Below are positions 1,357-12,690 of a stretch of 64,000 bases of DNA, piece after piece. The stretch lies in sequence record OZ035771.1; one strand, 5' to 3'. The stretch is from Phapecoctavirus DIJ07P2. Both the position numbers and the translations under genes were made by a program. The stretch's first letter is position 1; each line of letters opens with the position of its first letter. The notes below the pieces were generated by a model, which saw only the letters and a program-made list of their open reading frames with translations, did no database searches and was not told the origin of the DNA.

Positions 1357-1412
1357 TATTTTAACTTTTTTCATTTTTAGAACAAAGGTGTCACTTTGTA
1401 GCACAGAAATAA

Positions 1413-1447: not shown

Positions 1448-1598
1448 TCCTATACAAACCCTTGTCTTTTTCAGTTTGCATCACTAGGATTCGATCTGAG
1501 TGGGTTCCTGAAGGTCTGCCAATAAGATTAAAGGTTATCTCAAATTCCCACTACCTATTATCTCAAAAATCCCTCAAATTATTTAAACTTTTTAAGAA

Positions 1599-1784
1599 TT
1601 TACAAAAGTGAAAGTTGAAAACCAAAATTTAAAGTTTAGGAAAATTATCTTAAAATGTCAGATACAAAACAAAACTCAAAAGTCAAGGAAAATTTTAAAA
1701 ATTTTGCGCGCCCACAGTATTTAAAGTTTTTTTGCTTTTACAAAAATGAAAGTACAAAAGCAAAATTTAAAGTTTACAAAAATT
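1599..1784. repeat. two ~47-bp AT-rich direct repeats
   Basis: TTACAAAAGTGAAAGTTGAAAACCAAAATTTAAAGTTTAGGAAAATT (1599-1646) vs TTACAAAAATGAAAGTACAAAAGCAAAATTTAAAGTTTACAAAAATT (1737-1784). Confidence 0.55.
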
Positions 1785-1796
1785 TATGCAGATGGG

Positions 1797-1899
1797 AATG
1801 AGAAGAGTTCTCATATGGAAATGCAAATGATAATGATTCGCATTTAGGTTTATAAATGAGATTGATTCTTATTTGATAAGGTAAATGATAATCATTCTC
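1797..1899. promoter_or_regulatory. Fur-box-like operator cluster (two 19-mers plus a palindrome)
   Basis: GCAAATGATAATGATTCGC (1823-1841) and GTAAATGATAATCATTCTC (1881-1899) match GATAATGATAATCATTATC at 14/19 and 16/19; palindrome ATGAGAAgagTTCTCAT at ~1797-1814. Confidence 0.4.
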
Positions 1900-2161
1900 A
1901 TTTAGAGAATGACGCGCAGGGGCGGTGTTTGTCTCGCGCTCCCGTGTCCCCTCGCCATGTAATAAGAATAACAGATCCAGCCAGGAAAGCAAGCGATTAT
2001 TTTATCTTTACATTTCTTTACAAATATATAGCGCCCAGCCTACCGGCGATCAACCTTCCAACCAGCGCCCTGGTATGTTAGCCCCGCCTTTACGCCGTGG
2101 GGGTGGCGCTTCCTCTTCTGTATGTAAAACAGTATAAGCCCGATCCCTGGGCTTGTCAAGA

Positions 2162-2428
2162 TTATTTTTTGTTTTCTTGCCAGGTTAGGACACCTAGCCA
2201 AAAATGAATATCACCTTTTCCCCAATGTGGTATATTGCTTTCTTTCCCACCTTCACGCGCCCAGGTAAAACCGCCCGTGTAACTTTGTAATTGATAACTA
2301 TCCTCGACCTTATAATCTGATAGGTTGAGAACTGTTTCAACCTTTAAGCCCGTTGCGCTTGCTACCTGGTGCACCGTGCCGCCTTGCCAGCCCAATGAGT
2401 GCATAAGGTGTAATGTAGTATTTGTCAT
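2162..2428 (-). CDS. hypothetical protein in GC-rich island
   Basis: 88-aa minus ORF with AAGGG RBS-like sequence; local GC content visibly higher than surroundings. Confidence 0.35.
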   Translation of the reverse strand: MTNTTLHLMHSLGWQGGTVHQVASATGLKVETVLNLSDYKVEDSYQLQSYTGGFTWAREGGKESNIPHWGKGDIHFWLGVLTWQENKK

Positions 2429-2537
2429 GGTGTCGCCCTTTCTTTGTTGTGCGCCCTGGTTGGCGCGGTAGAAAGATGATAGCCCTTTCCTTTATATATA
2501 GCAAGCAAAAAGAAAATAAAAAAGATTGAAAAAGTGA

Positions 2538-2595
2538 TTGACGTTCGCCAGGTGGCGGCATAATATTTACCACGTAGGGCGGCAATGGTGCCGCT
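2538..2595 (+). promoter_or_regulatory. early promoter / 5' hairpin cassette 1
   Basis: -35 TTGACG 2538, 17-nt spacer, -10 TAATAT 2561, CACGTAGGGCGG box, stem GCGGC/GCCGC 2578-2595. Confidence 0.6.
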
Positions 2596-2615
2596 CATTA
2601 TTTGGAATTAAGATC

Positions 2616-2813
2616 ATGGCAACATTGCACATTGTGGCGAAAGCTGGACAAATCAACGTAGTAGTAAACGGTTTTACTGAGTTCAGTCATCCCCAGGATG
2701 ATCATGAAACGGTTTTATCTTTCATTGATTCACTGTTAGAAATGGGAGTCATTACAGAAGACCAGCACGCTACAAAATGCAAACGCGTTAATCAGATTGC
2801 AGGAATAGAATAA
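2616..2813 (+). CDS. hypothetical small protein (65 aa)
   Basis: track ORF 2538..2813 trimmed to ATG 2616 downstream of the cassette. Confidence 0.55.
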   Translation: MATLHIVAKAGQINVVVNGFTEFSHPQDDHETVLSFIDSLLEMGVITEDQHATKCKRVNQIAGIE

Positions 2814-2819
2814 AAAGTA

Positions 2820-2878
2820 TTGACAACAACCAACAACCTGATAAGATGTATCACATAAGGCGGGAAATGGTTTCCCGC
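2820..2878 (+). promoter_or_regulatory. early promoter / 5' hairpin cassette 2
   Basis: -35 TTGACA 2820, -10 TAAGAT 2842, CACATAAGGCGGG box, stem GCGGGA/TCCCGC 2860-2878. Confidence 0.6.
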
Positions 2879-2902
2879 TCACAACAGAAGAGAGAAATCA
2901 TC

Positions 2903-3175
2903 ATGGCATCATATAGCGCAACAATGATCGTAGCTGGTACCACTGGTAAACCTATGAGCGGTGGCGGATCTTTCGCTAATATTAATATTGATGGGCGTTT
3001 ATCCCTGGACGCAGCGATCACCGTGGCGCGGGAAACATTTAAGAAAGAATGTGATTTCAACAAGCAAGATTATTTAGGTTTTGCTATTGAAAAAACGGCG
3101 CGTTTTGTTGATTATAAAAGTCCGAAAATGGTTGATACTACACTAAAAGCGCAAGATGTAGCCTTTTTGCTTTAA
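2903..3175 (+). CDS. hypothetical small protein (90 aa)
   Basis: ATG 2903 after conserved ACAACAGAAGAGAGAAATCATC leader; track ORF 2846..3175 trimmed. Confidence 0.6.
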   Translation: MASYSATMIVAGTTGKPMSGGGSFANINIDGRLSLDAAITVARETFKKECDFNKQDYLGFAIEKTARFVDYKSPKMVDTTLKAQDVAFLL

Positions 3176-3178
3176 GGC

Positions 3179-3233
3179 TTGACATTAACGAATAATTTGT
3201 TAATATGTTACATAAAGCGGGAACTATTCCCGC
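3179..3233 (+). promoter_or_regulatory. early promoter / 5' hairpin cassette 3
   Basis: -35 TTGACA 3179, -10 TAATAT 3201, stem GCGGGA/TCCCGC 3217-3233. Confidence 0.55.
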
Positions 3234-3251
3234 TATTTGTAAGGTGGTAGA

Positions 3252-3509
3252 ATGTTTTACATCAAATTAAAAGGTCACGTGATCGCGTTCAAGGATAACG
3301 CTTTTTACAGATTAGCAAAATATGCGTTAATACATCCCCATTATGTTTATATAAGGGGGCGTGATGAAATAAATATCTTTGATCAAACAACATGCGAGAA
3401 CATCGAGATCCGCAAGGTTGGCGTACGTGACTATCGTACATCTTTCTACCCTTGCAAGGATTCAGCAAGTCTTTTTAAAGTATGCCAATTGTTGAAAAAA
3501 GGTGGTTAA
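3252..3509 (+). CDS. hypothetical protein (85 aa)
   Basis: track ORF; GGTGG RBS. Confidence 0.6.
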   Translation: MFYIKLKGHVIAFKDNAFYRLAKYALIHPHYVYIRGRDEINIFDQTTCENIEIRKVGVRDYRTSFYPCKDSASLFKVCQLLKKGG

Positions 3510-3510
3510 T

Positions 3511-4068
3511 ATGGGCCGCGAATATGTGATCCAGTCTTGGGTAAAACATGAAGCAGATGATCCGCGCATCATTCCTGATTATCTTGTCGATGAATCCACG
3601 GGCTATAGCGGGGAGCAAATAGGTAACAGATTAGCACGTAGTAACGGCAACGTAAAAGCGCGTTATGTGCGCCCTGGCTGGCTGGCAAATGGTAACGCTG
3701 ATTTATCCAGTGCGGAAGATGCGAGCGACGGCGCGAAAGATAATCCTTTGTACAAAGTTGATCCGGCTTTTCGTGTCCTGGATGAATACCCCAGCAAGAT
3801 AGCGGCGCTCGATCAGGCCCTGGAAAGTAAGCGCATCACCTGGACCGCTTACAACATGGCAAAAAACGTACTTGATGGTAAATTGATTCAAGCTGAAAGA
3901 AAATTAGCCAAAATTGCAGCCATAGCCCAGGAGGAAGACGAGGAGACAACGGAAGAGGAAGAGTACGAAGAGATCCCGCCGTTGTTGTGTGTTGATGCTT
4001 TTCCTGATTATCAGCCGACAGAGGAAGAAAAAAGGATCGCACTAGAAAACTTTGAAAATAGTCTTTGA
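3511..4068 (+). CDS. hypothetical protein with acidic C-terminus (185 aa)
   Basis: track ORF 3502..4068 trimmed to ATG 3511 (AAGGTGG 5 nt upstream); C-terminal EEDEETTEEEEYEE. Confidence 0.55.
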   Translation: MGREYVIQSWVKHEADDPRIIPDYLVDESTGYSGEQIGNRLARSNGNVKARYVRPGWLANGNADLSSAEDASDGAKDNPLYKVDPAFRVLDEYPSKIAALDQALESKRITWTAYNMAKNVLDGKLIQAERKLAKIAAIAQEEDEETTEEEEYEEIPPLLCVDAFPDYQPTEEEKRIALENFENSL

Positions 4069-4122
4069 CATATCGCCGCCACTGGCATAATATTTACCAC
4101 GTAGGGCGGCAATGGTGCCGCT
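4065..4122 (+). promoter_or_regulatory. early promoter / 5' hairpin cassette 4
   Basis: -35 TTGACA 4065 overlapping previous stop, -10 TAATAT 4088, stem GCGGC/GCCGC. Confidence 0.6.
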
Positions 4123-4150
4123 CATAGTGAAATTATGCAAGAGGCTTACA

Positions 4151-4246
4151 ATGATTAATAAAGGAAATAGCTTGACGGTTGGAACGATTAACGCTATCAT
4201 TCTCGCCGTTCCATTTTGGGTTGTAGTAGCGGCTATTATTTTCTAA
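4151..4246 (+). CDS. hydrophobic micro-protein (31 aa, single TM helix)
   Basis: ATG 4151 after AGAGG; MINKGNSLTVGTINAIILAVPFWVVVAAIIF; below 60-aa track cutoff. Confidence 0.45.
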   Translation: MINKGNSLTVGTINAIILAVPFWVVVAAIIF

Positions 4247-4255
4247 AAAATATTC

Positions 4256-4316
4256 TTGACAACGTTTTTTAATCTGATAAGATGTATCACATAGGGCGGC
4301 GGAATACTTCCCCGCC
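4256..4316 (+). promoter_or_regulatory. early promoter / 5' hairpin cassette 5
   Basis: -35 TTGACA 4256, -10 TAAGAT 4278, stem GGCGGCGG/CCCCGCC. Confidence 0.6.
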
Positions 4317-4337
4317 AAAACAAAAAAGGGTAACACA

Positions 4338-4700
4338 ATGAGCAAGCAAATCAATACTATCATGTTTAATCTGGTATCTTTCCGCGATGATATGAAAAAT
4401 TTACCACGTGAAACGGTTGATATTCATGTTTCAGCTTATCGCGCCCTTATTGACATGTTACCGCTAAAACGTGATCAACATGCCGCTAATATGATGCTTA
4501 ATGCTATGCTTAAAAAGATGATTCAAACGGATCTCACCCTGGCATATGAGTATCAAGGGCGCTTATATGCAAATTACAACAGAGCGGTACCTGGTCTGGG
4601 AAGTACTGAAGAGTTGCACGGCTTAAACCTGGATCAAAACACTTGGGATAGTATGCGCCGCGTTATGGTATGGGCCGAAAGCGGTAAAATTTACGAATAA
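4338..4700 (+). CDS. hypothetical protein (120 aa)
   Basis: track ORF directly downstream of cassette 5. Confidence 0.6.
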   Translation: MSKQINTIMFNLVSFRDDMKNLPRETVDIHVSAYRALIDMLPLKRDQHAANMMLNAMLKKMIQTDLTLAYEYQGRLYANYNRAVPGLGSTEELHGLNLDQNTWDSMRRVMVWAESGKIYE

Positions 4701-4706
4701 AAACGG

Positions 4707-4763
4707 TTGACACTGTTTTTTATTCTGGTATAGTTTATCACGTAGGGCGGCAATGGTGCCGCC
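4707..4763 (+). promoter_or_regulatory. early promoter / 5' hairpin cassette 6
   Basis: -35 TTGACA 4707, -10 TATAGT 4729, stem GCGGC/GCCGC. Confidence 0.6.
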
Positions 4764-4783
4764 AACAATAAAAGGTTAACATC

Positions 4784-4963
4784 ATGACCATCATTGCAAA
4801 AACTGAGATTATAGGTTTAGATTCGATCCTCCTGGCTTATGAGGAAACTTTAAAAATGTATGTAGTGACCTATGGTGATTATGTGCGTGAATACGAATAC
4901 ATTGATCTTGCTTTCGAATGTTACATTCGCCAGGTCAATAAAGCCTATAACGATTATCGTTAA
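4784..4963 (+). CDS. hypothetical micro-protein (59 aa)
   Basis: ATG 4784 after AAAGG; 60 codons; below track cutoff. Confidence 0.5.
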   Translation: MTIIAKTEIIGLDSILLAYEETLKMYVVTYGDYVREYEYIDLAFECYIRQVNKAYNDYR

Positions 4964-4982
4964 AAGTTTTAGTCTTATACTA

Positions 4983-5034
4983 TTGACAATGAGTGATAGT
5001 ATAAGCATAATAACTTTTATCGGGAATACTTCCC
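4983..5034 (+). promoter_or_regulatory. early promoter / weak hairpin cassette 7
   Basis: -35 TTGACA 4983; short stem GGGAA/TTCCC 5021-5034. Confidence 0.45.
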
Positions 5035-5059
5035 ACTAACCAAAAAAGAGAGTAATATC

Positions 5060-5425
5060 ATGGCTATTAATATCAATGTTTCCTCTTATGCTACCCTGGC
5101 TGACACGGCTAAAATTGAATTATCCAGCATTGAGGCGGTGCATATTAGCGCCCGTCGTTGGTTTCAACAGTCCTACGGTAACACATATTTTTCTTTAATG
5201 GTTGACGTTGAGATCGGCGGTAAACTGATCGAGGTGGTTAACGTTCCGTTTCAATATGGTTATGGTGATCATTTTGATACCGTCGCCCTGGAAGAATTTA
5301 GCAAGGTTATTAATATGGAAGGTAAAGAGTTTTCACGCGGCGCGTATCTTTCCCGTTTTTGCCGTGATAATGGGATCACTGTATACAGTCATGCGAGCGA
5401 TGTTAAACGTAAAAAAGATTTATAA
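5060..5425 (+). CDS. hypothetical protein (121 aa)
   Basis: track ORF; conserved leader and ATG-GCT start. Confidence 0.6.
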   Translation: MAININVSSYATLADTAKIELSSIEAVHISARRWFQQSYGNTYFSLMVDVEIGGKLIEVVNVPFQYGYGDHFDTVALEEFSKVINMEGKEFSRGAYLSRFCRDNGITVYSHASDVKRKKDL

Positions 5426-5431
5426 AAAGCA

Positions 5432-5490
5432 TTGACAGCACGAATAAAAAGAGTAAACTGTATTACATAGAGAGCGGGAACACTTCCCGC
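5432..5490 (+). promoter_or_regulatory. early promoter / 5' hairpin cassette 8
   Basis: -35 TTGACA 5432, -10 TAAACT ~5455, stem GCGGGAA/TTCCCGC. Confidence 0.55.
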
Positions 5491-5515
5491 CTCACTGAAA
5501 AAAGAGATTAACATC

Positions 5516-5755
5516 ATGGCTAAATCAAAAATGTTCTTAGGTCACAAAAATAAAACTCATTGGAATGTAAGCCTTTGGATTAATAACGATGAATCGTTAT
5601 ATCGGTTGGCGAAAGAATTTATCGCCGCTAATACTAATCGTAATGATGCTGCCCGTGATATGATGTTATTCCTGGAACAAACTGGACAAGATAAAACTCC
5701 AGACGGTTTCAAGTATAGCACTACAGCGATCCGCGCCGCGATGGTTGGAATGTAA
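5516..5755 (+). CDS. hypothetical protein (79 aa)
   Basis: track ORF. Confidence 0.6.
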   Translation: MAKSKMFLGHKNKTHWNVSLWINNDESLYRLAKEFIAANTNRNDAARDMMLFLEQTGQDKTPDGFKYSTTAIRAAMVGM

Positions 5756-5768
5756 AGGAGATATAAAA

Positions 5769-5849
5769 ATGAAACATCGTTCTACCTATCTAACAAAACG
5801 TTTTAGCTTAGATCATAAATTGGGCTATTACGGAAGAAATAGAAAATAA
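5769..5849 (+). CDS. possible micro-ORF (26 aa)
   Basis: ATG 5769 with strong AAGGAG 7 nt upstream. Confidence 0.3.
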   Translation: MKHRSTYLTKRFSLDHKLGYYGRNRK

Positions 5850-5850
5850 T

Positions 5851-5910
5851 TTGACAACGTTTAAAATTAGTGTAAGATGTATCACATAGGGCGGGAAGTG
5901 GTTTCCCGCC
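5851..5910 (+). promoter_or_regulatory. early promoter / 5' hairpin cassette 9
   Basis: -35 TTGACA 5851, -10 TAAGAT 5873, stem GCGGGAA/TTCCCGC. Confidence 0.6.
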
Positions 5911-5932
5911 AACAACAGAGAGATTAAAGATT

Positions 5933-6160
5933 ATGGCTATCAATATTGTTCGCGTATCCGGCACCGTTGGCACTTCCCAAGTTATTGCAGTTGTAACAAA
6001 CAAAAAGATTAATGATGTATGTGAAAGCTTGAATAAGTGGGCTATTGTTAATTTTGGGGAATATGCAAGCGTCGAGTACATCGAATCCTACCAGGTGCCA
6101 ACCATCAGCCTAACCGATCTCAACGTTGATCGCTTGTTGTGCCTGGATGAATTAATCTGA
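5933..6160 (+). CDS. hypothetical protein (75 aa)
   Basis: track ORF. Confidence 0.6.
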   Translation: MAINIVRVSGTVGTSQVIAVVTNKKINDVCESLNKWAIVNFGEYASVEYIESYQVPTISLTDLNVDRLLCLDELI

Positions 6161-6170
6161 AAAAAGATTG

Positions 6171-6227
6171 TTGACACCGGAAAGAAAAAGAGTAGAATAT
6201 ATTACATAGGGCGGCAATGGTGCCGCT
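6171..6227 (+). promoter_or_regulatory. early promoter / 5' hairpin cassette 10
   Basis: -35 TTGACA 6171, -10 TAGAAT 6194, stem GCGGC/GCCGC. Confidence 0.6.
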
Positions 6228-6251
6228 CACAACAGAAGAGAGATTATCACG

Positions 6252-6467
6252 ATGGCTAATATCCGCACTTTACTGAAAAATGCAAGTCAAGTTTTATTTT
6301 CAGATGATGAGTATTTCAATAAAGACATTACAGGCGTGAAAAATTTAAAAGACGTGAAGGATGTTATCGGTATTCGTGGATCTTTACGTAAAGGTGACTA
6401 CTATGGTAACAAGGTGCAATATAAACTGTCAAAGGATTACAATTTTACTTTGACAATTATTTCATAA
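6252..6467 (+). CDS. hypothetical protein (71 aa)
   Basis: track ORF. Confidence 0.6.
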   Translation: MANIRTLLKNASQVLFSDDEYFNKDITGVKNLKDVKDVIGIRGSLRKGDYYGNKVQYKLSKDYNFTLTIIS

Positions 6468-6473
6468 AACCGC

Positions 6474-6536
6474 TTGCAATACTGCAAAAATAAAGTAAAC
6501 TGTATTCATCAAGGCGGTGGAATAGCCAACCGCCTA
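6474..6536 (+). promoter_or_regulatory. early promoter / 5' hairpin cassette 11
   Basis: -35 TTGCAA 6474, -10 TAAACT ~6497, stem AGGCGGT/ACCGCCT. Confidence 0.5.
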
Positions 6537-6558
6537 ACAAAGAGAAGAGGAAAACATC

Positions 6559-6726
6559 ATGATCACTTTCGCTACCCGTGAAGCCGCTCGCAACGTTGCA
6601 CGTAAAGTTAACGCCGCCAACCTGGGCGCTACGCTTAAAGCTCCGGTAAAAGATGAATCAGGCAAATGGATCTTCCCTGGTCTGCGTCATGCTGACAAGT
6701 TAGGTACTTTAAGCCTTAAAAAATAA
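6559..6726 (+). CDS. hypothetical basic micro-protein (55 aa)
   Basis: ATG 6559 after AGAGGAAAAC leader; below track cutoff. Confidence 0.5.
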   Translation: MITFATREAARNVARKVNAANLGATLKAPVKDESGKWIFPGLRHADKLGTLSLKK

Positions 6727-6729
6727 TCG

Positions 6730-6766
6730 TTGACTTTTCGTTATAGCGCCTTACAATGGGCGCTAT
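6730..6766 (+). promoter_or_regulatory. early promoter / hairpin cassette 12 (-10 inside the loop)
   Basis: -35 TTGACT 6730, -10 TACAAT 6752 lying in the loop of stem TAGCGCC/GGCGCTA. Confidence 0.45.
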
Positions 6767-6801
6767 AGAGAAGAGAAACCACTACTAACAAGGAAACCAT
6801 T

Positions 6802-7023
6802 ATGATCACTTTCGCTATTGTCGCCGTTGTTGCTGGTCAAGTTTACGTAAATGAGACATTTACTACAGAAGACAAGGCAGCAGGAGATATAACCGCCGTT
6901 TACAATGAGTGCAAGGCAGTAGAAAGGATGTTAGCGCCTTGTATGCTAATGAGTGAACGCCAGGACGGAATAACAGTATTTACTAACATTGGAACAGGGT
7001 ACCAAATGGTAGTAACAAAATAA
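6802..7023 (+). CDS. hypothetical protein (73 aa)
   Basis: track ORF. Confidence 0.55.
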   Translation: MITFAIVAVVAGQVYVNETFTTEDKAAGDITAVYNECKAVERMLAPCMLMSERQDGITVFTNIGTGYQMVVTK

Positions 7024-7026
7024 AGC

Positions 7027-7083
7027 TTGACACCGATTTAATTTTTAGTAAACTGTTACACGTAGGGCGGGAATAGTTCCCGC
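7027..7083 (+). promoter_or_regulatory. early promoter / 5' hairpin cassette 13
   Basis: -35 TTGACA 7027, -10 TAAACT 7049, stem GCGGGA/TCCCGC 7067-7083. Confidence 0.6.
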
Positions 7084-7102
7084 TCAAAAAGAGAGAAAGA
7101 TC

Positions 7103-7456
7103 ATGAAAGCACAAAATGCAATTAAAGAGTACATCCTTGCCGCTATCGGTTTTAATGATTACGGTATTACAACAGAAAAAGAGAAGATCGCGGAATTGAT
7201 GCGCCGTTTTAATTCCGAGTACTGGTACCCTGATAACCAATCACGTTTTAATTATAGTATTGTTAAAGCACTTGCATCATGGTTACAAGGTTTGCCATCA
7301 GATATTAATATCGCTTTCGAATATTGGGAAGTGGATCGCTTGTTAACATCCTGGGGATACATTAAAGAGAATAGCAGCGATGATAAAATCCAACGAGAAA
7401 GGGAAAATTATTGGCTTTATATTGCAGGCGTGATCCTTGCTTGCTCTTATGAATGA
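7103..7456 (+). CDS. hypothetical protein (117 aa)
   Basis: track ORF. Confidence 0.6.
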   Translation: MKAQNAIKEYILAAIGFNDYGITTEKEKIAELMRRFNSEYWYPDNQSRFNYSIVKALASWLQGLPSDINIAFEYWEVDRLLTSWGYIKENSSDDKIQRERENYWLYIAGVILACSYE

Positions 7457-7462
7457 TAAACC

Positions 7463-7516
7463 TTGACAATTTTACAAAACAGTTTAAATTAACAATATAG
7501 CGGCAATGGTGCCGCT
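7463..7516 (+). promoter_or_regulatory. early promoter / 5' hairpin cassette 14
   Basis: -35 TTGACA 7463; stem AGCGGC/GCCGCT 7499-7516. Confidence 0.5.
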
Positions 7517-7535
7517 CATATAAAGAGGAAACAAA

Positions 7536-7682
7536 ATGAATACATCTAATCGCGCAGAAAAAATTCAATCTTCCAAGATCCGCAAGGCCTGGAACGAGGA
7601 AGTGATCCGCAAAGGCGACAAGCGTAATAAAACAAAGCGCGGGAAGAGTGACAAATATAATTGGATGGATTTAGAGGATTAA
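7536..7682 (+). CDS. basic micro-protein (48 aa)
   Basis: ATG 7536 after AAGAGGAAAC; lysine/arginine-rich; below track cutoff. Confidence 0.5.
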   Translation: MNTSNRAEKIQSSKIRKAWNEEVIRKGDKRNKTKRGKSDKYNWMDLED

Positions 7683-7688
7683 CATAAC

Positions 7689-7716
7689 AAGGGCGCACCA
7701 AGCGCCCTTTCTTTTT
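7689..7716 (+). terminator. rho-independent terminator (conserved hairpin type, copy 1)
   Basis: AAGGGCGCACCAAGCGCCCTT followed by TCTTTTT. Confidence 0.6.
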
Positions 7717-7737
7717 ATATGCAGAGGATAAACAAAG

Positions 7738-7923
7738 ATGACTTTAAACGAGCTTAAAACAGCCTACAACGCAACATTAAAAATAGCCGTGCGTTACCGT
7801 GATGCGTATGGTTTTATCGCGCAGGGCGTGATCCTGGGCTTTTCTGACGATGGTTTGATCTATGTTGATGCACATCACAACAAGGTTAAACCTGAAAACG
7901 TCATTAATATAAAATATCTTTAA
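7738..7923 (+). CDS. hypothetical protein (61 aa)
   Basis: track ORF; AGAGGA RBS. Confidence 0.5.
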   Translation: MTLNELKTAYNATLKIAVRYRDAYGFIAQGVILGFSDDGLIYVDAHHNKVKPENVINIKYL

Positions 7924-7929
7924 AAATGG

Positions 7930-7988
7930 TTGACACCATAACCGGACCTGTTAAACTGTATTACATCAGGCGGGGAATAGTTCCCCAC
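7930..7988 (+). promoter_or_regulatory. early promoter / 5' hairpin cassette 15
   Basis: -35 TTGACA 7930, -10 TAAACT 7952, stem GGGG/CCCC. Confidence 0.5.
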
Positions 7989-8008
7989 CATACAAAAAGG
8001 TAAATATT

Positions 8009-8215
8009 ATGATCACCGCAAAACAAGAAAAAATCATTATCGACGTTGCAGCCGTTGCCGCTATCGCTATTATTGGATCTTATTATGATACCCGTTTCCC
8101 GTCGGCTATGCATGAGGTCGCCGCCGTTGCATCAGTTGGCGTACTGTTTTACGTTGGTAAACGCTATTTATCACCAATGATTAACAAGCTGACACCGTGG
8201 AAAAATAAAGGTTGA
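8009..8215 (+). CDS. small membrane protein (68 aa)
   Basis: track ORF; hydrophobic stretches. Confidence 0.55.
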   Translation: MITAKQEKIIIDVAAVAAIAIIGSYYDTRFPSAMHEVAAVASVGVLFYVGKRYLSPMINKLTPWKNKG

Positions 8216-8266
8216 TCCTGTTTTACATTATGTTATAGTTATCGTGTAGGGCGGCAATGGTGCCGC
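8212..8266 (+). promoter_or_regulatory. early promoter / 5' hairpin cassette 16
   Basis: -35 TTGATC 8212, -10 TATAGT 8234, stem GGCGGC/GCCGC. Confidence 0.5.
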
Positions 8267-8286
8267 GCCCCTTTGAGGATGCAATC

Positions 8287-8571
8287 ATGAGTAAAGCTAA
8301 CACCGTGCTAATGTTTTCCCTGATTAATGATCTCGCTTACTTGTCCAACATGACGCAGGAGGGTAACACATTAACGGCAACATTCACCAATAAGCTTGAC
8401 CGAGTGATCATCGTCTCACTGAAAACAGTTAGTAAAGGCTTTTACTTGTTAGCTTATCATTGTATCACTGATACCGATGAGACAAGCCAGGACTATAGCG
8501 CCCCTTTCCCTGAATCAATGGCACGGGAGATCATCGCCGCCGTTGTAAATGATGGTTTGTTTACTGCATAA
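8287..8571 (+). CDS. hypothetical protein (94 aa)
   Basis: track ORF 8257..8571 trimmed to ATG 8287. Confidence 0.55.
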   Translation: MSKANTVLMFSLINDLAYLSNMTQEGNTLTATFTNKLDRVIIVSLKTVSKGFYLLAYHCITDTDETSQDYSAPFPESMAREIIAAVVNDGLFTA

Positions 8572-8589
8572 AATAATTTAGAAAAAGGC

Positions 8590-8646
8590 TTGCAATCATT
8601 TTGAGATAGTGTATATTTAATTCATAGGGCGGCGGGAATAGTTCCC
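8590..8646 (+). promoter_or_regulatory. early promoter / 5' hairpin cassette 17
   Basis: -35 TTGCAA 8590, -10 TATATT 8612, stem GGGAA/TTCCC. Confidence 0.45.
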
Positions 8647-8669
8647 AAAGCAAACGAGAGGATTACACG

Positions 8670-8789
8670 ATGAGCAAGTACACAGTAGAATACACGGTAG
8701 AGAATCCGGCAGTATCCGAAGGTAAAAAGATGACATTTACCATCAGTATAATCGCTTTCGTTGTCACTATCTTATCAATCATCTTATAA
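8670..8789 (+). CDS. hydrophobic micro-protein (39 aa)
   Basis: ATG 8670 after GAGAGG; C-terminal TM segment; below track cutoff. Confidence 0.45.
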   Translation: MSKYTVEYTVENPAVSEGKKMTFTISIIAFVVTILSIIL

Positions 8790-8799
8790 GGTGCACACC

Positions 8800-8961
8800 A
8801 TGAAAACAACAGATATTATCAAAGAGATCGCCCTTGCCGCTGGCGTTGAGATCGAGGAAGTGATCGCGCTCAATCTTACAGAAAACGATCTGCGCAACTA
8901 TGAAGCGGAAAGCGTGAAAGCAAGTGGCGCGGTCCTGGCATATAATCCGGCTAACAAATAG
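8800..8961 (+). CDS. hypothetical micro-protein (53 aa)
   Basis: track ORF 8761..8961 trimmed to ATG 8800. Confidence 0.45.
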   Translation: MKTTDIIKEIALAAGVEIEEVIALNLTENDLRNYEAESVKASGAVLAYNPANK

Positions 8962-8962
8962 T

Positions 8963-9017
8963 TTGACAAGCTGAATCAACCTGATAAGATGTATCACATA
9001 GGGGCGACAAGCGCCCC
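8963..9017 (+). promoter_or_regulatory. early promoter / 5' hairpin cassette 18
   Basis: -35 TTGACA 8963, -10 TAAGAT 8985, stem GGGGCG/CGCCCC. Confidence 0.6.
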
Positions 9018-9038
9018 GCCTAACAGAGAGATAGAATC

Positions 9039-9317
9039 ATGACCATCGCCAAATTATCCGCCGAAGAAATCGAACAAGTGCTAACTACTAACCTGGAACA
9101 ATGGAAACGTGAGGCAGATATACAATCAGCACAATGGCTTAACGAGAAGTTAACACCGGATGATCTGAGTAAGATTATAGATCCTCAATTCTACGAAGAT
9201 ATTCACGACACCGTTTTAAGCGTCGAGGATGTACTTGATAAGCATTATATTGCTACTGATTTGCAGGTTTACGGGCGTAAAAACTTTATTACTATTCACG
9301 ACATTTACAATAACTAA
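9039..9317 (+). CDS. hypothetical protein (92 aa)
   Basis: track ORF. Confidence 0.6.
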   Translation: MTIAKLSAEEIEQVLTTNLEQWKREADIQSAQWLNEKLTPDDLSKIIDPQFYEDIHDTVLSVEDVLDKHYIATDLQVYGRKNFITIHDIYNN

Positions 9318-9325
9318 GGGATAAC

Positions 9326-9454
9326 ATGAATCCGAAAGATATGCAAGCATGGAAAGGGTACGACGATCTAAGCGCCTTGCGCAATAAGTCAAGCCGTAAC
9401 CTTAGACGGTTAGAAGCAAAGAAAAAGAAAAAACAGTTTGACAAGTCCGCTTAA
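9326..9454 (+). CDS. basic micro-protein (42 aa)
   Basis: ATG 9326 after TAAGGGATAAC; end overlaps next promoter; below track cutoff. Confidence 0.4.
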   Translation: MNPKDMQAWKGYDDLSALRNKSSRNLRRLEAKKKKKQFDKSA

Positions 9455-9494
9455 TCTGGTAAAGTGTATCTCGTAGGGCGGCAATGATGCCGCT
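9438..9494 (+). promoter_or_regulatory. early promoter / 5' hairpin cassette 19
   Basis: -35 TTGACA 9438, -10 TAAAGT 9460, stem GGCGGC/GCCGC (loop AATGAT). Confidence 0.55.
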
Positions 9495-9514
9495 CACAAG
9501 AAGAGAGAAAAATC

Positions 9515-9799
9515 ATGAAGATCACAAAAAGCCTAACTAATTATGCAGCACGTCGCGGATTATGCTTAACCGTTGAAAACTCAGGGAAAGAAGACTTTTT
9601 GTGTTTTTGGGAGCTTGAAAATGATTGCGAGTGGATGTTTTCTTATTCTATCTGCGAAGATCAAAACGGTTGTTTGTTAACCTGGCGCGGTAATATCTAT
9701 TTACCGGAAGAAATTAAAGAAGAGTTACCAGGTACGATCATGACAGAGAGACAGCTTAAGGAAGTGATCAATTTTGTAGGGCAAAACATTAAAAAATAA
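9515..9799 (+). CDS. hypothetical protein (94 aa)
   Basis: track ORF. Confidence 0.6.
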   Translation: MKITKSLTNYAARRGLCLTVENSGKEDFLCFWELENDCEWMFSYSICEDQNGCLLTWRGNIYLPEEIKEELPGTIMTERQLKEVINFVGQNIKK

Positions 9800-9800
9800 T

Positions 9801-9862
9801 TTGACAGCACGCAAACAACGTAGTAAAGTTTACCACATAGGGCGGCGGAATGGTCCACCGCT
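9801..9862 (+). promoter_or_regulatory. early promoter / 5' hairpin cassette 20
   Basis: -35 TTGACA 9801; CACATAGGGCGG box; GC stem ~9841-9862. Confidence 0.55.
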
Positions 9863-9884
9863 CACAACAGAAGAGAAACAAATC

Positions 9885-10055
9885 ATGATCCCGACTATGT
9901 TTTATGTATCGCGCAAAGGTCACAATATTTTTTGGTCTGAAGATTTAAATGAAGCCATGACGTTTGCCCGTGATCGTGTTGCTATCGGTGGCGTTAACAT
10001 CACCGTAACCGATGAAAATGGCATTGAATACTATAACGGCGACGATGAAGAGTAA
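9885..10055 (+). CDS. hypothetical micro-protein (56 aa)
   Basis: track ORF 9801..10055 trimmed to ATG 9885. Confidence 0.5.
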   Translation: MIPTMFYVSRKGHNIFWSEDLNEAMTFARDRVAIGGVNITVTDENGIEYYNGDDEE

Positions 10056-10062
10056 TTAATAA

Positions 10063-10082
10063 GGCGGGGAATACTTCCCGCC
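10063..10082 (+). other. orphan GC hairpin of the cassette type, no promoter
   Basis: GGCGGGGAATACTTCCCGCC directly after a stop codon with no -35/-10 upstream. Confidence 0.5.
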
Positions 10083-10121
10083 ACGCAGTGAATTTTCCGT
10101 TTGGGAAGTAAAAAATAAATC

Positions 10122-10182
10122 TTGACGATAATTTGTTATCTGATAGAATGTATTTCGTAGGGCGGGGCAATAAGGCAAGCCC
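10122..10182 (+). promoter_or_regulatory. early promoter / 5' hairpin cassette 21
   Basis: -35 TTGACG 10122, -10 TAGAAT 10144, TCGTAGGGCGG box. Confidence 0.55.
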
Positions 10183-10199
10183 ACAAAGAGGAAAATAAA

Positions 10200-10568
10200 A
10201 TGAGCAAATCAGCAATTAAAGCACTTGAAAAAGCACAAGAAGTGATCGCAACGTCAACCACTGGCGCAAAGGTTAATCTCGTTTGTTATCTGACAGATGA
10301 AACTATCCGTAAAAATTGGCGTAATGCTGATTTACTGGCTTGCTTATTGATTAATAGTGTCGCTAATGCTTTCCAGTGTGAAACAGCCGAGAGCCTGGAG
10401 GAAAACTTGTTTGATAATATGGATCAAGCCATTGAAACCTATATACAATCAAACCTGGATAGCTGGAACAGTAAAACATGGCCCGACAATTTACGCGATA
10501 CAACTGATCAACTGATCCGCCTTGCCCTGATGGTTGAACGCGATAACGTTTACAACAGCACAAAGTAA
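10200..10568 (+). CDS. hypothetical protein (122 aa)
   Basis: track ORF. Confidence 0.6.
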   Translation: MSKSAIKALEKAQEVIATSTTGAKVNLVCYLTDETIRKNWRNADLLACLLINSVANAFQCETAESLEENLFDNMDQAIETYIQSNLDSWNSKTWPDNLRDTTDQLIRLALMVERDNVYNSTK

Positions 10569-10576
10569 GATTATAC

Positions 10577-10598
10577 AAGGGCGCACTAAGCGCCCTTT
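10577..10598 (+). terminator. terminator-like hairpin (conserved type, copy 2)
   Basis: AAGGGCGCACTAAGCGCCCTT; weak T-tract. Confidence 0.4.
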
Positions 10599-10632
10599 AA
10601 CGTAAAGAAATGTAAATAATGCGCTATCCCTA

Positions 10633-10668
10633 TTGACAGGGGATCGGCGTTATATTATATTTAACTTA
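10633..10668 (+). promoter_or_regulatory. sigma70-like promoter without hairpin
   Basis: TTGACA 10633, 17-nt spacer, TATATT. Confidence 0.45.
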
Positions 10669-10706
10669 CTGGCAGCAAACAACGAAACGAAACAAAGGAC
10701 AACATC

Positions 10707-11126
10707 ATGAACATTAAATCAAATAATCCAGCTTACTCCTTCGATAACGCTTTTTGTCACGGTAGCGCCGCCAAAGGCTTCGAAATCGATGGTAAATTGG
10801 TTATCGTGAACGTTGACGGGGAAGAGGTTGCAGTGTATCCGGTAAACGATGTTAAAAGCCGTTTACAATGCCGCATGGATGTTACCGCATATCAGCTTGA
10901 TCCGGTCCGTGTAGTTGCCCTGGTATTAGAGGAAGAGATCAAAGCAATGCATCACAGTAATAAGTTTATTGGTGACGCGCAGGATAATATGAACGTTTGC
11001 CGCCATAAAGTTAATGAAGCATTGAAAGAATGCGGTTTTAAGGATCTGATGATTAAACGTGATGAAAAATTCCGCTTTCGTAATGACCTGGCAAACCGGA
11101 TCTACTCAATCTATGAAGCTTTATAA
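10707..11126 (+). CDS. hypothetical protein (139 aa)
   Basis: track ORF. Confidence 0.6.
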   Translation: MNIKSNNPAYSFDNAFCHGSAAKGFEIDGKLVIVNVDGEEVAVYPVNDVKSRLQCRMDVTAYQLDPVRVVALVLEEEIKAMHHSNKFIGDAQDNMNVCRHKVNEALKECGFKDLMIKRDEKFRFRNDLANRIYSIYEAL

Positions 11127-11139
11127 TCGACAACAAAAC

Positions 11140-11169
11140 AAGGGGCGCACAAAGCGCCCTTTCTTTTTG
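11140..11169 (+). terminator. rho-independent terminator (conserved type, copy 3)
   Basis: AAGGGGCGCACAAAGCGCCCTT followed by TCTTTTTG. Confidence 0.6.
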
Positions 11170-11199
11170 CCCGAACAATGTTGATAGCTTTCGCCTATG

Positions 11200-11680
11200 A
11201 AAAACCGACACAGAACAAAACTGAATAAATCGCGGTATCGAGCTAATCAACCAGCAAACGAATAACCATACCTCCCAGGGTTACAGGCTGTTAGAGAGCC
11301 ATTTAGAGCGGTTAAAATCGATCAACAACCAACAACAAACCATCAAAAACACCCTTTTACCTCCTTTCTAGTGCAATGATAACCATTATCATCTACCCAT
11401 GATTATCTATGCAATATAAGCGCATAATTATAATGTTGATAATAGTTCGCAACAACTAACCAACAAACAACATAAAACAATAAGCAAACTAATCATAATC
11501 AAAGGAATAATAGCAAGATGATTGATAACGACAAACAATCGAACCATGATGAATACTAAGCAAGATAACGATAACACGACAAAACAACCAACTAACGAAC
11601 AATAACAAACGAAACCATTAAAATAATAACTATTAGCAAAATAGTGCCTGAATGAAATCATTACAAAACGAATCATTCAC
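11200..11680. repeat. A+C-rich, strand-asymmetric low-complexity tract
   Basis: plus strand dominated by CAA/ACA/AAC repeats with very few G; no credible ORF. Confidence 0.5.
11372..11390. promoter_or_regulatory. Fur-box-like 19-mer
   Basis: TGCAATGATAACCATTATC; 3' 15 nt match Fur consensus at 14/15. Confidence 0.35.
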
Positions 11681-11699
11681 AGAGTCATCATTAGCACGC

Positions 11700-12060
11700 T
11701 ATGCCGGACACATAGCGAGCTAATAATAAGCCAACTACACCCCAACAATCATAACCATCGGTGACGGTTATTTCTTGTTACTGCGTAGCTTGCAATAATT
11801 GCAAGCGTAATGACGCTTACACTTATTGCGCTGGCTTATTATTAGCATTATATGTAATTACCAAGATCATAACATTAGCGCAATAACAATAGTCATTGTA
11901 ATAATTACATGAGTTATCACTATCGTTCAGTGTGATCATCATTAGCACAGTGAATAATTGCACGTAGCAACATGAGCGAATAGCGACAGGTTGCATAGTG
12001 TGCACATAGTGTATAAACATACAAGAAAATAAAGGCTAATCTTTTGGGGGCGAATACTAT
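11700..12060. repeat. cluster of palindromes and inverted repeats
   Basis: GCTAATAATAAGCC (11718) / GGCTTATTATTAGC (11838); CTTGCAAT-A-ATTGCAAG; AGCGT-AATG-ACGCT; ACAAT-AGTC-ATTGT; ATAGTGT direct repeat. Confidence 0.5.
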
Positions 12061-12150
12061 CGCGTAGCGATATGTTGAGCACCTTCTCTTAAACGTAAAT
12101 AAAATCAGAAAATTCTTGATTTATTTTAGTTTTTATGTTAATAAACGTTT

Positions 12151-12169
12151 AAATAATAATCATTCTCAT
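12151..12169. promoter_or_regulatory. Fur-box-like 19-mer
   Basis: AAATAATAATCATTCTCAT, 14/19 to Fur consensus. Confidence 0.3.
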
Positions 12170-12328
12170 ATAAATAATAGTCTGCTTGTCATGAGCGGGA
12201 TTAGTTGACAATGTTCCGTCATATGATGAAGTTGCCAAGCCATTGATAAATAAGTGTTTGTGTGATTTATAATCAGGTGGCCCACCTTGTCGCTATGTTG
12301 GCATGAGCCTTGCATAAGTCATTGAATA

Positions 12329-12350
12329 CGAATGATAATTATTCTCATTC
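12329..12350. promoter_or_regulatory. Fur-box-like palindrome
   Basis: CGAATGATAATTATTCTCATTC, near-perfect palindrome, 14/19 to Fur consensus. Confidence 0.35.
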
Positions 12351-12690
12351 GCATGATATTTGGGAATTGTCGCTGCGTGGACCTGACGGCCCGAAAATTC
12401 GCGTTAAGCACTTCTTACGTATACGCCATGATTTTTGCCATATGATATTGATTCTATTAGATATTCTTGCCATTATTGCCATGAAACATGGTGTCCCGAA
12501 ATAATCTCTCCCCGTAGATATTTTGGGTTACTTTTTATACAAGAGTGGGGTGTCAAAAATAATCAGTATATATGGGATAATTGATAGGAATCCCCTATGA
12601 TAATTCGATTGTAATTCCCTAAGATTGATCGTATGATGTTGGTGATTGATGATTGCCATGAAAGATGGCTAACGATGAGAGGAGATTGTC

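What the first reader, a model, noticed from the sequence alone, without database searches (positions are those of the whole stretch)
10063..10082. Cassette-type hairpin occurring alone, without a promoter
GGCGGGGAATACTTCCCGCC sits immediately after the stop codon of the 9885-10055 gene with no -35/-10 upstream, while the next full cassette starts about 40 nt later. The hairpin can therefore exist independently of the promoter, suggesting it is a functional unit in its own right (processing site, protein-binding site or stabiliser for the upstream 3' end) rather than a by-product of promoter sequence.
Basis: seen in the sequence. Interest (0 to 1): 0.45.

Follow-up and report, generated by a model that had tools for sequence, protein, structure and literature searches.

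The report
Orphaned early-mRNA hairpin, a deletion scar
The lone GC-rich hairpin after a small early gene of this phAPEC8-like coliphage is real and has no promoter, but it is the leftover leader hairpin of a small downstream gene removed by a 123-bp deletion, so it is an ordinary by-product of cassette shuffling and not a new kind of signal.

Summary
GGCGGGGAATACTTCCCGCC (10063-10082) folds into an 8-bp hairpin (-14.9 kcal/mol, z -3.6). It starts 7 nt after the stop of the 56-codon gene 9885-10055. Of 20 such hairpins in the early region 2500-10200, it is the only one without a sigma-70 promoter. The window is a phAPEC8-like phage (Stephanstirmvirinae).

In relatives, the hairpin at this position is followed about 19 nt later by a Shine-Dalgarno site and the start of one of two alternative small genes. 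Here that gene is gone. Its last codons survive at 10084-10125, and the junction lies at an 8-nt repeat (TCCCGCCA). That repeat is shared by the hairpin's 3' arm and codons Ile-Pro-Pro of the lost 45-aa gene; the two copies lie 123 nt apart in phage WPEC4.

The sequence upstream is not a decayed promoter. It encodes a C-terminus that is conserved in a distant homologue.

Promoterless hairpin-SD-gene junctions recur elsewhere in the family, so the hairpin is separable from the promoter. Its most likely role, which is inferred and not shown, is as an RNA end-protecting stem-loop. At the DNA level it also provides short homology for PeSL-like module shuffling. Interest is low to moderate.

The parts
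9801..9829 (+). Sigma-70 promoter of the cassette that drives gene 9885-10055 (TTGACA-N17-TAAAGT). Transcripts from here run through the solitary hairpin.
   Evidence: PWM score 31.8 bits.
9840..9863 (+). Ordinary cassette hairpin (GGGCGGCGGAATGGTCCACCGCTC). It begins about 4 nt from the predicted transcript start.
   Evidence: (-15.0 kcal/mol).
9885..10055 (+). 56-aa early gene (homologue of phAPEC8_009). It is 100% identical in 81 phage records, and its C-terminus is ancestral coding sequence.
10063..10082 (+). The finding: a promoterless cassette-type hairpin with 8 bp including one G.U pair and loop AUAC.
   Evidence: Homology with phAPEC8 ends exactly at 10082.
10076..10083 (+). TCCCGCCA, the surviving copy of the short direct repeat at the deletion junction. 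In the parent it was the hairpin's 3' arm plus A on one side and codons Ile-Pro-Pro of the lost gene on the other.
   Evidence: WPEC4 has ATCCCGCC twice, 123 nt apart. phiWec190 has gaTCCCGCCAggtagtg, and slur16 has the hairpin arm CTTCCCGCCAtt.
10084..10125 (+). 3' remnant of the deleted 45-48-aa gene (MKTFNATAS...SEFSVWEVK). It has no start codon and no SD site.
   Evidence: Identical tail gcagtgaattttccgtttgggaagtaaaa... in ev052, ESCO25, WPEC4, slur16 and phiWec190.
10122..10149 (+). Promoter of the next full cassette (TTGACG-N16-TAGAAT).
   Evidence: 30.5 bits.
10160..10183 (+). Hairpin of the next cassette. It is chimeric, with a crossover inside the hairpin (GGGCGGGGCAATAAGGCAA|GCCC). 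Compared with phage AV126, about 2.1 kb carrying 8 genes are missing here.
   Evidence: weakened fold, -10.8 kcal/mol.

Best explanation
WHAT IT IS

The early region of this phAPEC8-like phage is built from about 20 repeats of one expression cassette. Each cassette has an A-rich upstream element, TTGACA-N16/17-TAnnnT, a GC-rich stem-loop with an invariant GCGG/CCGC base about 10 nt further on, and then an SD site and ATG 15-23 nt after the stem-loop.

The element at 10063-10082 is the stem-loop part of such a cassette, sitting at an internal gene junction. In relatives, the same position after the same 56-aa gene carries hairpin + SD + one of two alternative small genes, with no promoter.

In this phage, and in at least 5 others, a deletion of about 123 bp between two copies of (A/T)TCCCGCC(A) removed the SD site, the start codon and about 34 codons. 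One copy was the hairpin's 3' arm and the other lay in codons Ile-Pro-Pro of the 45-aa gene. The hairpin was left intact, followed by the last codons of the dead gene.

The hairpin itself looks chimeric. Its left arm GGCGGGG resembles the hairpin found after this gene in other phages. Its GAATACTTCCCGCC matches the full-cassette hairpin that precedes the 45-aa gene in phage slur16. This would explain the extra G and the G.U pair.

HOW IT MOST LIKELY WORKS (INFERRED)

The stem-loops act in the + strand RNA as end-protecting structures.
- In promoter-bearing cassettes they lie 1-5 nt from the predicted 5' end. This is the geometry of 5'-terminal stem-loops that block RppH and RNase E access, as in ompA and papA.
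- In read-through transcripts they lie just after a stop codon, where a stable hairpin can halt 3'-to-5' exonucleases.
- At 10063 only the second role can remain: protecting the 3' side of the 56-aa gene's message. It may equally be a tolerated relic.

At the DNA level, the conserved promoter and hairpin sequences supply the short homology for gene-module exchange and deletion, as PeSL cassettes do in T4-like phages.
For: SHOWN
- The cassette family and its geometry.
- This is the only promoterless hairpin in the window.
- Alleles after the same gene:
  - ev052, ESCO25, WPEC4, DE16: hairpin + SD + 45-48-aa gene.
  - B15, alia, ASO2A, L009, L010: hairpin + SD + 89-aa gene.
  - phAPEC8: hairpin fused to the next hairpin.
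  - Window, AV126, ZCKP1, ECML-183-2 (sequences read), and by full-length colinear BLAST matches TSP7_1 and vB_EcoM_01: hairpin + gene tail.

- The 8-nt repeat lies 123 nt apart in WPEC4, and the window junction sits exactly at it.
- slur16 has a full cassette with hairpin GCGGGAATACTTCCCGCC in front of the same gene.
- The C-terminus of the upstream gene is conserved in a distant homologue.
- All four homology block ends against phAPEC8 (4219, 5843, 10082, 10148) fall in cassettes.
- The neighbouring hairpin is chimeric, with a 2.1-kb deletion relative to AV126.

SUPPORTING AN RNA-LEVEL ROLE
- The fifth stem pair occurs as C:G, G:C or U:A, and the outer and sixth pairs also vary while staying paired.
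- The + strand RNA fold is more stable than the - strand fold in 35 of 48 unique hairpins, against 12 the other way (Wilcoxon p = 0.0065; the hairpins are paralogues and not independent). 17 use G.U pairs.
- The hairpin starts 1-5 nt from a start site assumed to lie 7 nt after the -10 element, in all 19 cassettes.
- vB_Ec-G1 and UP17 carry an unrelated AT-rich hairpin (-16.7 kcal/mol, z -4.6) at the same place after the gene.
- 5' secondary structure is known to stabilise mRNA because RppH and RNase E need single-stranded 5' ends (review PMC3997798, refs 92-95).
Against: - No transcript-end data exist for this phage group, so every functional step is inference.
- The conserved spacing and the conserved GCGG/CCGC core could reflect common descent and gene conversion among paralogous cassettes, not selection.
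- The compensatory changes are between paralogues, not along an orthologue tree.
- The strand asymmetry is modest.
- The hairpin is 100% identical in every deletion-allele carrier that was read, so there is no variation with which to test selection on the orphan copy.
- The exact parent allele (window-type hairpin plus intact 45-aa gene directly after the 56-aa gene) was not found, and the junction differs from the WPEC4-type prediction at two bases (CGC against GGT).
Confidence: 0.6

Rival explanations
1. It is a neutral relic with no function in this genome. The hairpins persist because they are part of the repeated DNA that drives cassette recombination, and this copy survived only because the deletion endpoint happened to lie at its 3' arm.
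For: The junction lies exactly at the repeat in the 3' arm. There is no SD site or gene downstream. The dead gene tail is also retained, which shows that non-functional sequence persists here. Block ends and a chimeric neighbour show that recombination acts on these elements.
Against: Every allele examined, including the unrelated G1/UP17 allele, keeps a stable hairpin within about 10 nt of this gene's stop. The paralogous hairpins keep their pairing through two-sided changes and favour the + strand RNA fold.
Confidence: 0.25
2. It is a transcription terminator or attenuator for the upstream gene. This is how phage ASO2A's GenBank record labels the same element, and stem-loops in T4-type PeSL cassettes were shown to act this way.
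For: The ASO2A record marks both the cassette hairpin and this post-gene hairpin as WebGeSTer rho-independent terminators. A PeSL stem-loop reduced lacZ expression about as much as the rrnB T1 terminator (PMC2839356).
Against: No U-tract follows it (ACGCAGUGAAUU). The + strand terminator scan does not call it, whereas the region's real terminators at 7689 and 11140 have UUUCUUUUU. The same hairpin type sits 1-5 nt after the start of 19 transcripts and about 19 nt before their start codons, so efficient termination would silence those genes.
Confidence: 0.1
3. It is a decayed full cassette whose promoter eroded in place. This is the refuting scenario the first reader named.
For: TTGAAT (10024-10029) - N16 - TGAAGA - N11 - hairpin has cassette-like spacing. 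The anchored PWM score of -0.16 bits lies in the top 2.4% of random anchors.
Against: The score is 12 or more bits below the weakest real cassette. These 40 nt encode IEYYNGDDEE, and DENGIEYYNGD aligns with DENEAVYFDSD in the MiataMamis homologue (E 2e-9). That protein is 100% conserved in 81 records. Where this gene's downstream partner does have a promoter (slur16, phiWec190), it is a separate, intact cassette in a different context.
Confidence: 0.04
4. It is a recognition site, in RNA or DNA, for a phage-encoded regulator or nuclease that acts on all early cassettes. Examples would be a global early shut-off repressor or a processing enzyme.
For: The 4-bp base GCGG/CCGC was invariant in all 21 hairpins tabulated, while the rest of the stem varies. 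The hairpins lie at +1 to +25 of every early transcript. The phAPEC8 authors' PHIRE scan flagged the 20-mers as phage-specific regulatory repeats.
Against: Loop sequence, stem length and half-site spacing all vary, which is unlike a protein operator. The G1/UP17 allele replaces the hairpin with an unrelated sequence. No boxA-like partner is enriched, and there is no Rfam family match. No candidate binding protein was identified.
Confidence: 0.08

Closest known systems
PeSL (promoter-early stem-loop) cassettes of T4-type phages (Arbiol et al. 2010, PMC2839356; Comeau et al. 2014, PMC4122927)
   Same: Both are repeated composite cassettes made of an A/T-rich stretch, a strong sigma-70 promoter, a GC-rich stem-loop and an SD site, placed in front of small ORFan early genes in a hyperplastic region. 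In both, indels between relatives end in the cassettes, and chimeric cassettes mark the deletions.
   Different: The host phage lineage differs (Stephanstirmvirinae/Vequintavirinae, not T4-like). Here the stem-loop lies downstream of the -10 element and inside the transcript, 1-5 nt from the predicted 5' end. In PeSLs it lies upstream of or within the promoter, where it terminates incoming transcription. The element studied here has lost the promoter half altogether.
5'-terminal stabilising stem-loops of E. coli mRNAs (ompA 5' UTR; papA after RNase E cleavage of papBA)
   Same: Both are short stable hairpins a few nucleotides from the 5' end, followed by an SD site. papA offers the precedent for an intercistronic hairpin that becomes 5'-terminal after processing (PMC3997798 refs 92-95; the papBA processing is from my own knowledge).
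   Different: No start site, cleavage site or half-life has been measured here. At 10063 there is no longer a downstream cistron to protect.
Intercistronic 3' stabiliser hairpins (REP elements such as malE-malF; my own knowledge)
   Same: Both are stable stem-loops directly after a stop codon, inside a polycistronic transcript and without a U-tract.
   Different: This one shares no sequence with REP elements and is phage-borne. It is derived from a 5'-UTR cassette. No effect on upstream mRNA has been tested.
Rho-independent terminators
   Same: Both have a GC-rich stem after a stop codon, and the element is annotated as a terminator in the ASO2A GenBank record.
   Different: It lacks the U-tract. 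The same hairpin type precedes 19 expressed genes.

Membership tests
Early-gene cassette hairpin family of this phage group (defined here) | GC-rich stem-loop with a GCGG...CCGC base, a 6-10 bp stem and a 3-5 nt loop, on the + strand in the early region | tested here: met
   The apical sequence is shared with the 4295 cassette hairpin and the slur16 cassette hairpin.
Early-gene cassette hairpin family of this phage group (defined here) | Sigma-70 promoter ending 8-14 nt upstream of the hairpin | tested here: not met
   PWM score -0.16 bits, against 12.5-36.5 bits for real cassettes.
Early-gene cassette hairpin family of this phage group (defined here) | SD site and start codon 15-23 nt downstream of the hairpin | tested here: not met
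   There is none in the window. Relatives have it at 19-22 nt. It was lost by the 123-bp deletion.
PeSL cassettes (T4-type phages) | Composite of a sigma-70 early promoter plus a stem-loop within about 100 bp | tested here: not met
   There is no promoter at this copy. The neighbouring cassettes do meet this feature.
PeSL cassettes (T4-type phages) | Lies at indel or replacement boundaries between closely related phages | tested here: met
   Homology with phAPEC8 ends at 10082. At least five different downstream alleles were seen.
PeSL cassettes (T4-type phages) | The stem-loop acts as a terminator or attenuator of upstream transcription | not testable with these tools
   This needs a reporter or an in vitro transcription assay. 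Absence of a U-tract argues against it.
Rho-independent terminator | GC-rich hairpin immediately followed by a U-rich tract on the transcribed strand | tested here: not met
   The hairpin is followed by ACGCAGTGAA. Only the - strand orientation passes the scan, because of the TAATTAATAA stop region.
5'-terminal stabilising stem-loop (ompA/papA type) | Hairpin within a few unpaired nucleotides of the mRNA 5' end | not testable with these tools
   For promoter-bearing cassettes, 1-5 nt is predicted from the -10 spacing. For 10063 it would need a processing event upstream of the hairpin, and no end-mapping data exist.
RNase III processing site (T7 early-region type) | Duplex of about 20 bp or more (my own knowledge) | tested here: not met
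   The stem is 8 bp.
Lambdoid nut site | A boxA element upstream of a boxB hairpin | tested here: not met
   BoxA-like matches are at chance level, 65 against 62 expected, and none is next to the hairpin.
Any Rfam family | A covariance-model match | tested here: not met
   No relevant hit in 2000-12000 at E <= 1.

The most novel reading that the evidence does not exclude
The invariant GCGG/CCGC-based stem-loops form a phage-wide RNA signal read by a dedicated factor. That factor could be a phage-encoded endoribonuclease or RNA-binding regulator, or a host factor the phage has recruited, which cuts or marks every early transcript at gene junctions. Promoterless copies such as this one would then be true processing or regulatory sites, and the cassette would be a self-contained, mobile 'promoter + processing signal + RBS' unit.
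Probability: 0.1. Interest if true: 0.6.

Novelty: new variant of a known kind. Interest (0 to 1): 0.3.

Why it matters
The specific element is a scar and matters little in itself. It is nevertheless a clean, base-resolved example of how early-gene modules are lost in phAPEC8-like and rV5-like phages: by short-homology recombination at the cassette hairpins.

It also shows that the hairpin half of the cassette travels with the gene, not with the promoter.

The wider point is that a PeSL-like shuffling system exists outside the T4 superfamily, in a variant where the stem-loop is transcribed at the very 5' end of each early mRNA.

These elements are labelled inconsistently in GenBank, as 'PHIRE promoters' in phAPEC8 and as 'rho-independent terminators' in ASO2A. 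That matters for annotating and engineering these therapeutic phage candidates.

Tried and rejected
- Decayed promoter. The geometry TTGAAT-N16-TGAAGA-N11 looked suspicious and scored in the top 2.4% of random anchors. It was rejected because the bases encode a C-terminus conserved in a distant homologue.
- Intrinsic terminator. It has no U-tract and fails the + strand scan. The - strand hit is an artefact of the AT-rich stop region, and there are no - strand genes here.
- nut/boxA. BoxA-like matches are at chance level.
- Rfam. There was no family match.
- MAFFT alignment of the hairpins (A1). It did not put the 3' arms in register, so the covariation tools could not be used on it. Pairs were tabulated directly by script instead.
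- IMG/VR pattern scan. It gave only 2 loci, so the comparative work relied on GenBank phage records.
- Literature searches for start-site or RNA-seq data on Phapecoctavirus/Stephanstirmvirinae and for the phAPEC8 PHIRE motif. These found nothing mechanistic.
- Simple slippage between the ATCCC repeats of ev052. This would destroy the hairpin and does not match the window. The CCCGCC-containing repeat of the WPEC4/phiWec190 type fits instead.
- Not used: the large protein and structure searches, because the question concerns a non-coding element.

Full report
IDENTITY OF THE WINDOW

Megablast of 9000-11500 finds 227 phage records. Nearly all are Escherichia myoviruses of about 150 kb related to phAPEC8 (Stephanstirmvirinae, Phapecoctavirus/Justusliebigvirus), at up to 99% identity. 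The finding lies in the + strand early region of small ORFan genes.

THE OBSERVATION

GGCGGGGAATACTTCCCGCC is at 10063-10082, exactly as stated.
- As RNA it forms an 8-bp stem (GGCGGGGA/UUCCCGCC, with one G.U pair) and loop AUAC. The energy is -14.9 kcal/mol, z = -3.64, and 0 of 200 shuffles fold as well.
- The 56-codon gene (ATG 9885) stops at 10053-10055, so the hairpin begins 7 nt later.
- The next promoter is TTGACG-N16-TAGAAT at 10122-10149.

THE CASSETTE FAMILY

Between 2500 and 10200 I found 19 standard cassettes. Each has this layout:
- an A-rich stretch;
- TTGACA-N16/17-TAnnnT;
- about 10 nt that usually end in (C)A/G-TAG;
- a GC-rich hairpin with the base GCGG...CCGC;
- 15-23 nt containing an SD site, often tCACAACAGAAGAGA;
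- the ATG.

TAGGGCGG alone occurs 12 times, against 0.4 expected.

Two independent hairpin scans list about 20 GCGG-core hairpins in this region. One scan required perfect stems and the other used a sliding RNAfold window. The hairpin at 10063 is the only one without a promoter.

A position-weight model covering the upstream element, the -35, and the -10 with its flanks was built from the 19 cassettes and anchored on the hairpin. It gives 12.5-36.5 bits for the real cassettes and -0.16 bits for 10063.

IS IT A DECAYED PROMOTER?

The -0.16 bits is still in the top 2.4% of random anchors, where the null mean is -15 with sd 7. By eye, TTGAAT-N16-TGAAGA-N11 has the right spacing.

However, these bases encode the last ten residues of the 56-aa protein. 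That protein is 100% identical in 81 records. Its C-terminal DENGIEYYNGD aligns with DENEAVYFDSD of a 56-aa homologue in the rV5-like phage MiataMamis (BLASTP E 2e-9, residues 5-53). In MiataMamis the gene is followed by an ordinary promoter with no GC hairpin.

The upstream sequence is therefore ancestral coding sequence.

WHAT RELATIVES HAVE AT THIS POSITION

- (i) ev052, ESCO25, WPEC4, DE16: TAA-tcaacaa-GGCGGGATTAATCCCGCC-tgtattaaagggtaatataATG, then a 45-48-aa gene (MKTFNATAS...SEFSVWEVK).
- (ii) B15, alia, ASO2A and two IMG/VR contigs: GGCGGGG(G)AGTA(TT)CCCCGCC-gtcaataaagaggtaaatcATG, then an 89-aa gene.
- (iii) phAPEC8: the hairpin is followed after 7 nt by the next cassette's hairpin, with the promoter gone.
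- (iv) vB_Ec-G1 and UP17: an unrelated AT-rich hairpin, AAGCTGTATT...AATACAGCTT (-16.7 kcal/mol, z -4.6).
- (v) The window, AV126, ZCKP1 and ECML-183-2 (sequences read), and by full-length colinear BLAST matches TSP7_1 and vB_EcoM_01: the window-type hairpin followed by ACGCAGTGAATTTTCCGTTTGGGAAGTAAAA.

That last string is the 3' end of the 45-48-aa gene of allele (i). The window therefore carries a gene tail with no start, which means a deletion.

HOW THE DELETION AROSE

In WPEC4, the hairpin's 3' arm ATCCCGCC recurs 123 nt downstream in codons Ile-Pro-Pro (gATCCCGCCAggtagtgaatttt). phiWec190 has the same codons. The window junction is ...CTTCCCGCC-A-cgc-AGTGAATTTT. This is the hairpin arm fused to the bases that follow the second repeat copy. 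Two bases differ from the WPEC4-type sequence (CGC against GGT; ev052 has GGC).

The rV5-like phage slur16 has the same 45-aa gene behind a complete cassette: TTGACA-N16-TAAAGT-gtactacatagc-GCGGGAATACTTCCCGCC-attaatgaggg...ATG. The apical part and the 3' arm of that hairpin are identical to the window's.

I infer that the window hairpin is chimeric. Its left arm GGCGGGG resembles the post-gene hairpin of alleles (ii). The remainder matches a slur16-type cassette hairpin. This would account for the unmatched G and the G.U pair. A hairpin-to-hairpin crossover also explains how a promoter is lost without decaying, because the promoter lies upstream of the crossover point.

RECOMBINATION AT CASSETTES IS VISIBLE AROUND THE ELEMENT

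- Against phAPEC8, the colinear blocks are 1-4219, 5843-10082 and 10148-12000. All four internal ends fall in cassettes, and 10082 is the last base of the solitary hairpin. Cassettes cover roughly one fifth of the region, so by my rough estimate four of four by chance is about 0.002.
- The next cassette's hairpin (10160-10183) is a chimera of two AV126 cassettes that lie 2.1 kb and 8 genes apart, with the crossover inside the hairpin at GGCAA|GCCC.

This is the behaviour described for PeSL cassettes of T4-type phages, including the 'single chimeric PeSL' left after excision (PMC2839356).

IS THE HAIRPIN A UNIT IN ITS OWN RIGHT?

Promoterless stop-hairpin-SD-ATG junctions occur elsewhere:
- phAPEC8 3551 (GGGGCGGCAACGCCCC, promoter score -11.3);
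- phAPEC8 3833 (promoter score -7.1);
- IMG/VR L010 927 and L009 1398 (promoter score 4-6).

All have hairpin-to-ATG distances like those of the promoter-bearing cassettes.

Among 21 tabulated hairpins, the four basal pairs are invariant. The fifth pair is C:G (5 hairpins), G:C (11) or T:A (2). The outer pair is G:C, G:T or A:T, and the sixth pair is A:T, G:C or G:T. Pairing is thus kept through two-sided changes.

The + strand RNA fold is more stable than the - strand fold in 35 of 48 unique hairpins, against 12 the other way (Wilcoxon p = 0.0065). 17 hairpins use G.U pairs. These are paralogues and not independent samples.

Together these results support a transcribed, structured element that is separable from the promoter.

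MECHANISM (INFERRED)

If transcription starts 7 nt after the -10 element, the hairpin begins 1-5 nt from the 5' end in all 19 cassettes. Such 5'-terminal stem-loops stabilise E. coli mRNAs because RppH and RNase E need single-stranded 5' ends (review PMC3997798, refs 92-95 on ompA and papA).

There are no terminators between most cassettes, so the same hairpins also lie just after stop codons in read-through transcripts. There they could block 3' exonucleases.

For 10063 only this second role is left. I cannot distinguish it from a tolerated relic, because the hairpin is identical in all carriers of the deletion that were read.

It is unlikely to be an intrinsic terminator. It has no U-tract, whereas the region's three near-identical true terminators (7689, 10577, 11140) have one or a partial one. 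In addition, the same hairpin type precedes 19 genes.

It is too short for RNase III. It has no boxA partner and matches no Rfam family.

PRIOR ANNOTATION

The phAPEC8 record labels the 20-mers that coincide with the hairpins 'putative promoter determined with PHIRE'. The ASO2A record labels both the cassette hairpins and this post-gene hairpin 'rho-independent terminator predicted by WebGeSTer'. I found no paper that analyses them.

VERDICT

It is wrong to read the solitary state here as a sign of autonomous function: this copy is the scar of a 123-bp short-homology deletion. The system is a PeSL-like cassette variant in a non-T4 lineage. The specific element is of low to moderate interest.

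Noticed in passing
window 10160-10183 (and AV126 locus L015): The hairpin of the next cassette is a chimera of two AV126 cassettes, with the crossover inside the hairpin. About 2.1 kb carrying 8 small genes present in AV126 are absent here. The chimeric hairpin folds poorly (-10.8 kcal/mol).
   Followed up: partly
window 4219, 5843, 10082, 10148: All homology block ends against phAPEC8 fall inside cassettes. The stretch 4220-5842 is a window-specific insert bounded by two cassettes.
   Followed up: partly
window 6741-6768 and 10621-10650: Two stable stem-loops overlap promoter elements: the -10 of the promoter at 6730 and the -35 of the promoter at 10633. This is the classical PeSL arrangement, unlike the standard cassettes here.
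   Followed up: no
window 7689-7709, 10577-10597, 11140-11162: Three near-identical terminator hairpins, AAGGGCGCAC(C/T/A)AAGCGCCCTT. Two have the tail TTTCTTTTT. The copy at 10577 has only TTTAACG and may be leaky.
   Followed up: no
window ~11170-12650: An ORF-free, AT-rich stretch of about 1.5 kb (GC down to 0.30) with strongly negative GC skew and short imperfect tandem repeats. phAPEC8 has the same unannotated gap (5512-7022), and the rV5 paper mentions a 'non-coding' box.
   Followed up: no
loci L007 (vB_Ec-G1) and L021 (UP17), just after the 56-aa gene: An unrelated AT-rich 10-11 bp hairpin (-16.7 kcal/mol) replaces the GC hairpin at the same position. It occurs in only these two records of the phage collection.
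   Followed up: partly
locus L011 (phAPEC8) 2377-2425: In phAPEC8 the post-gene hairpin is followed after 7 nt by the next cassette's hairpin, giving two stem-loops in tandem with the promoter and a gene deleted between them.
   Followed up: partly
window 10092-10109: The retained tail of the dead gene can form a second small stem-loop, UUUUCCG...GGGAAGU, predicted in the 86-nt fold. It lies in the conserved codons EFSVWEV of all alleles.
   Followed up: no
GenBank records JX561091 (phAPEC8) and MZ726793 (ASO2A): The same hairpins are annotated as 'PHIRE promoters' in one record and as 'rho-independent terminators' in the other. Neither label fits their position inside 5' UTRs or their lack of a U-tract.
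   Followed up: yes
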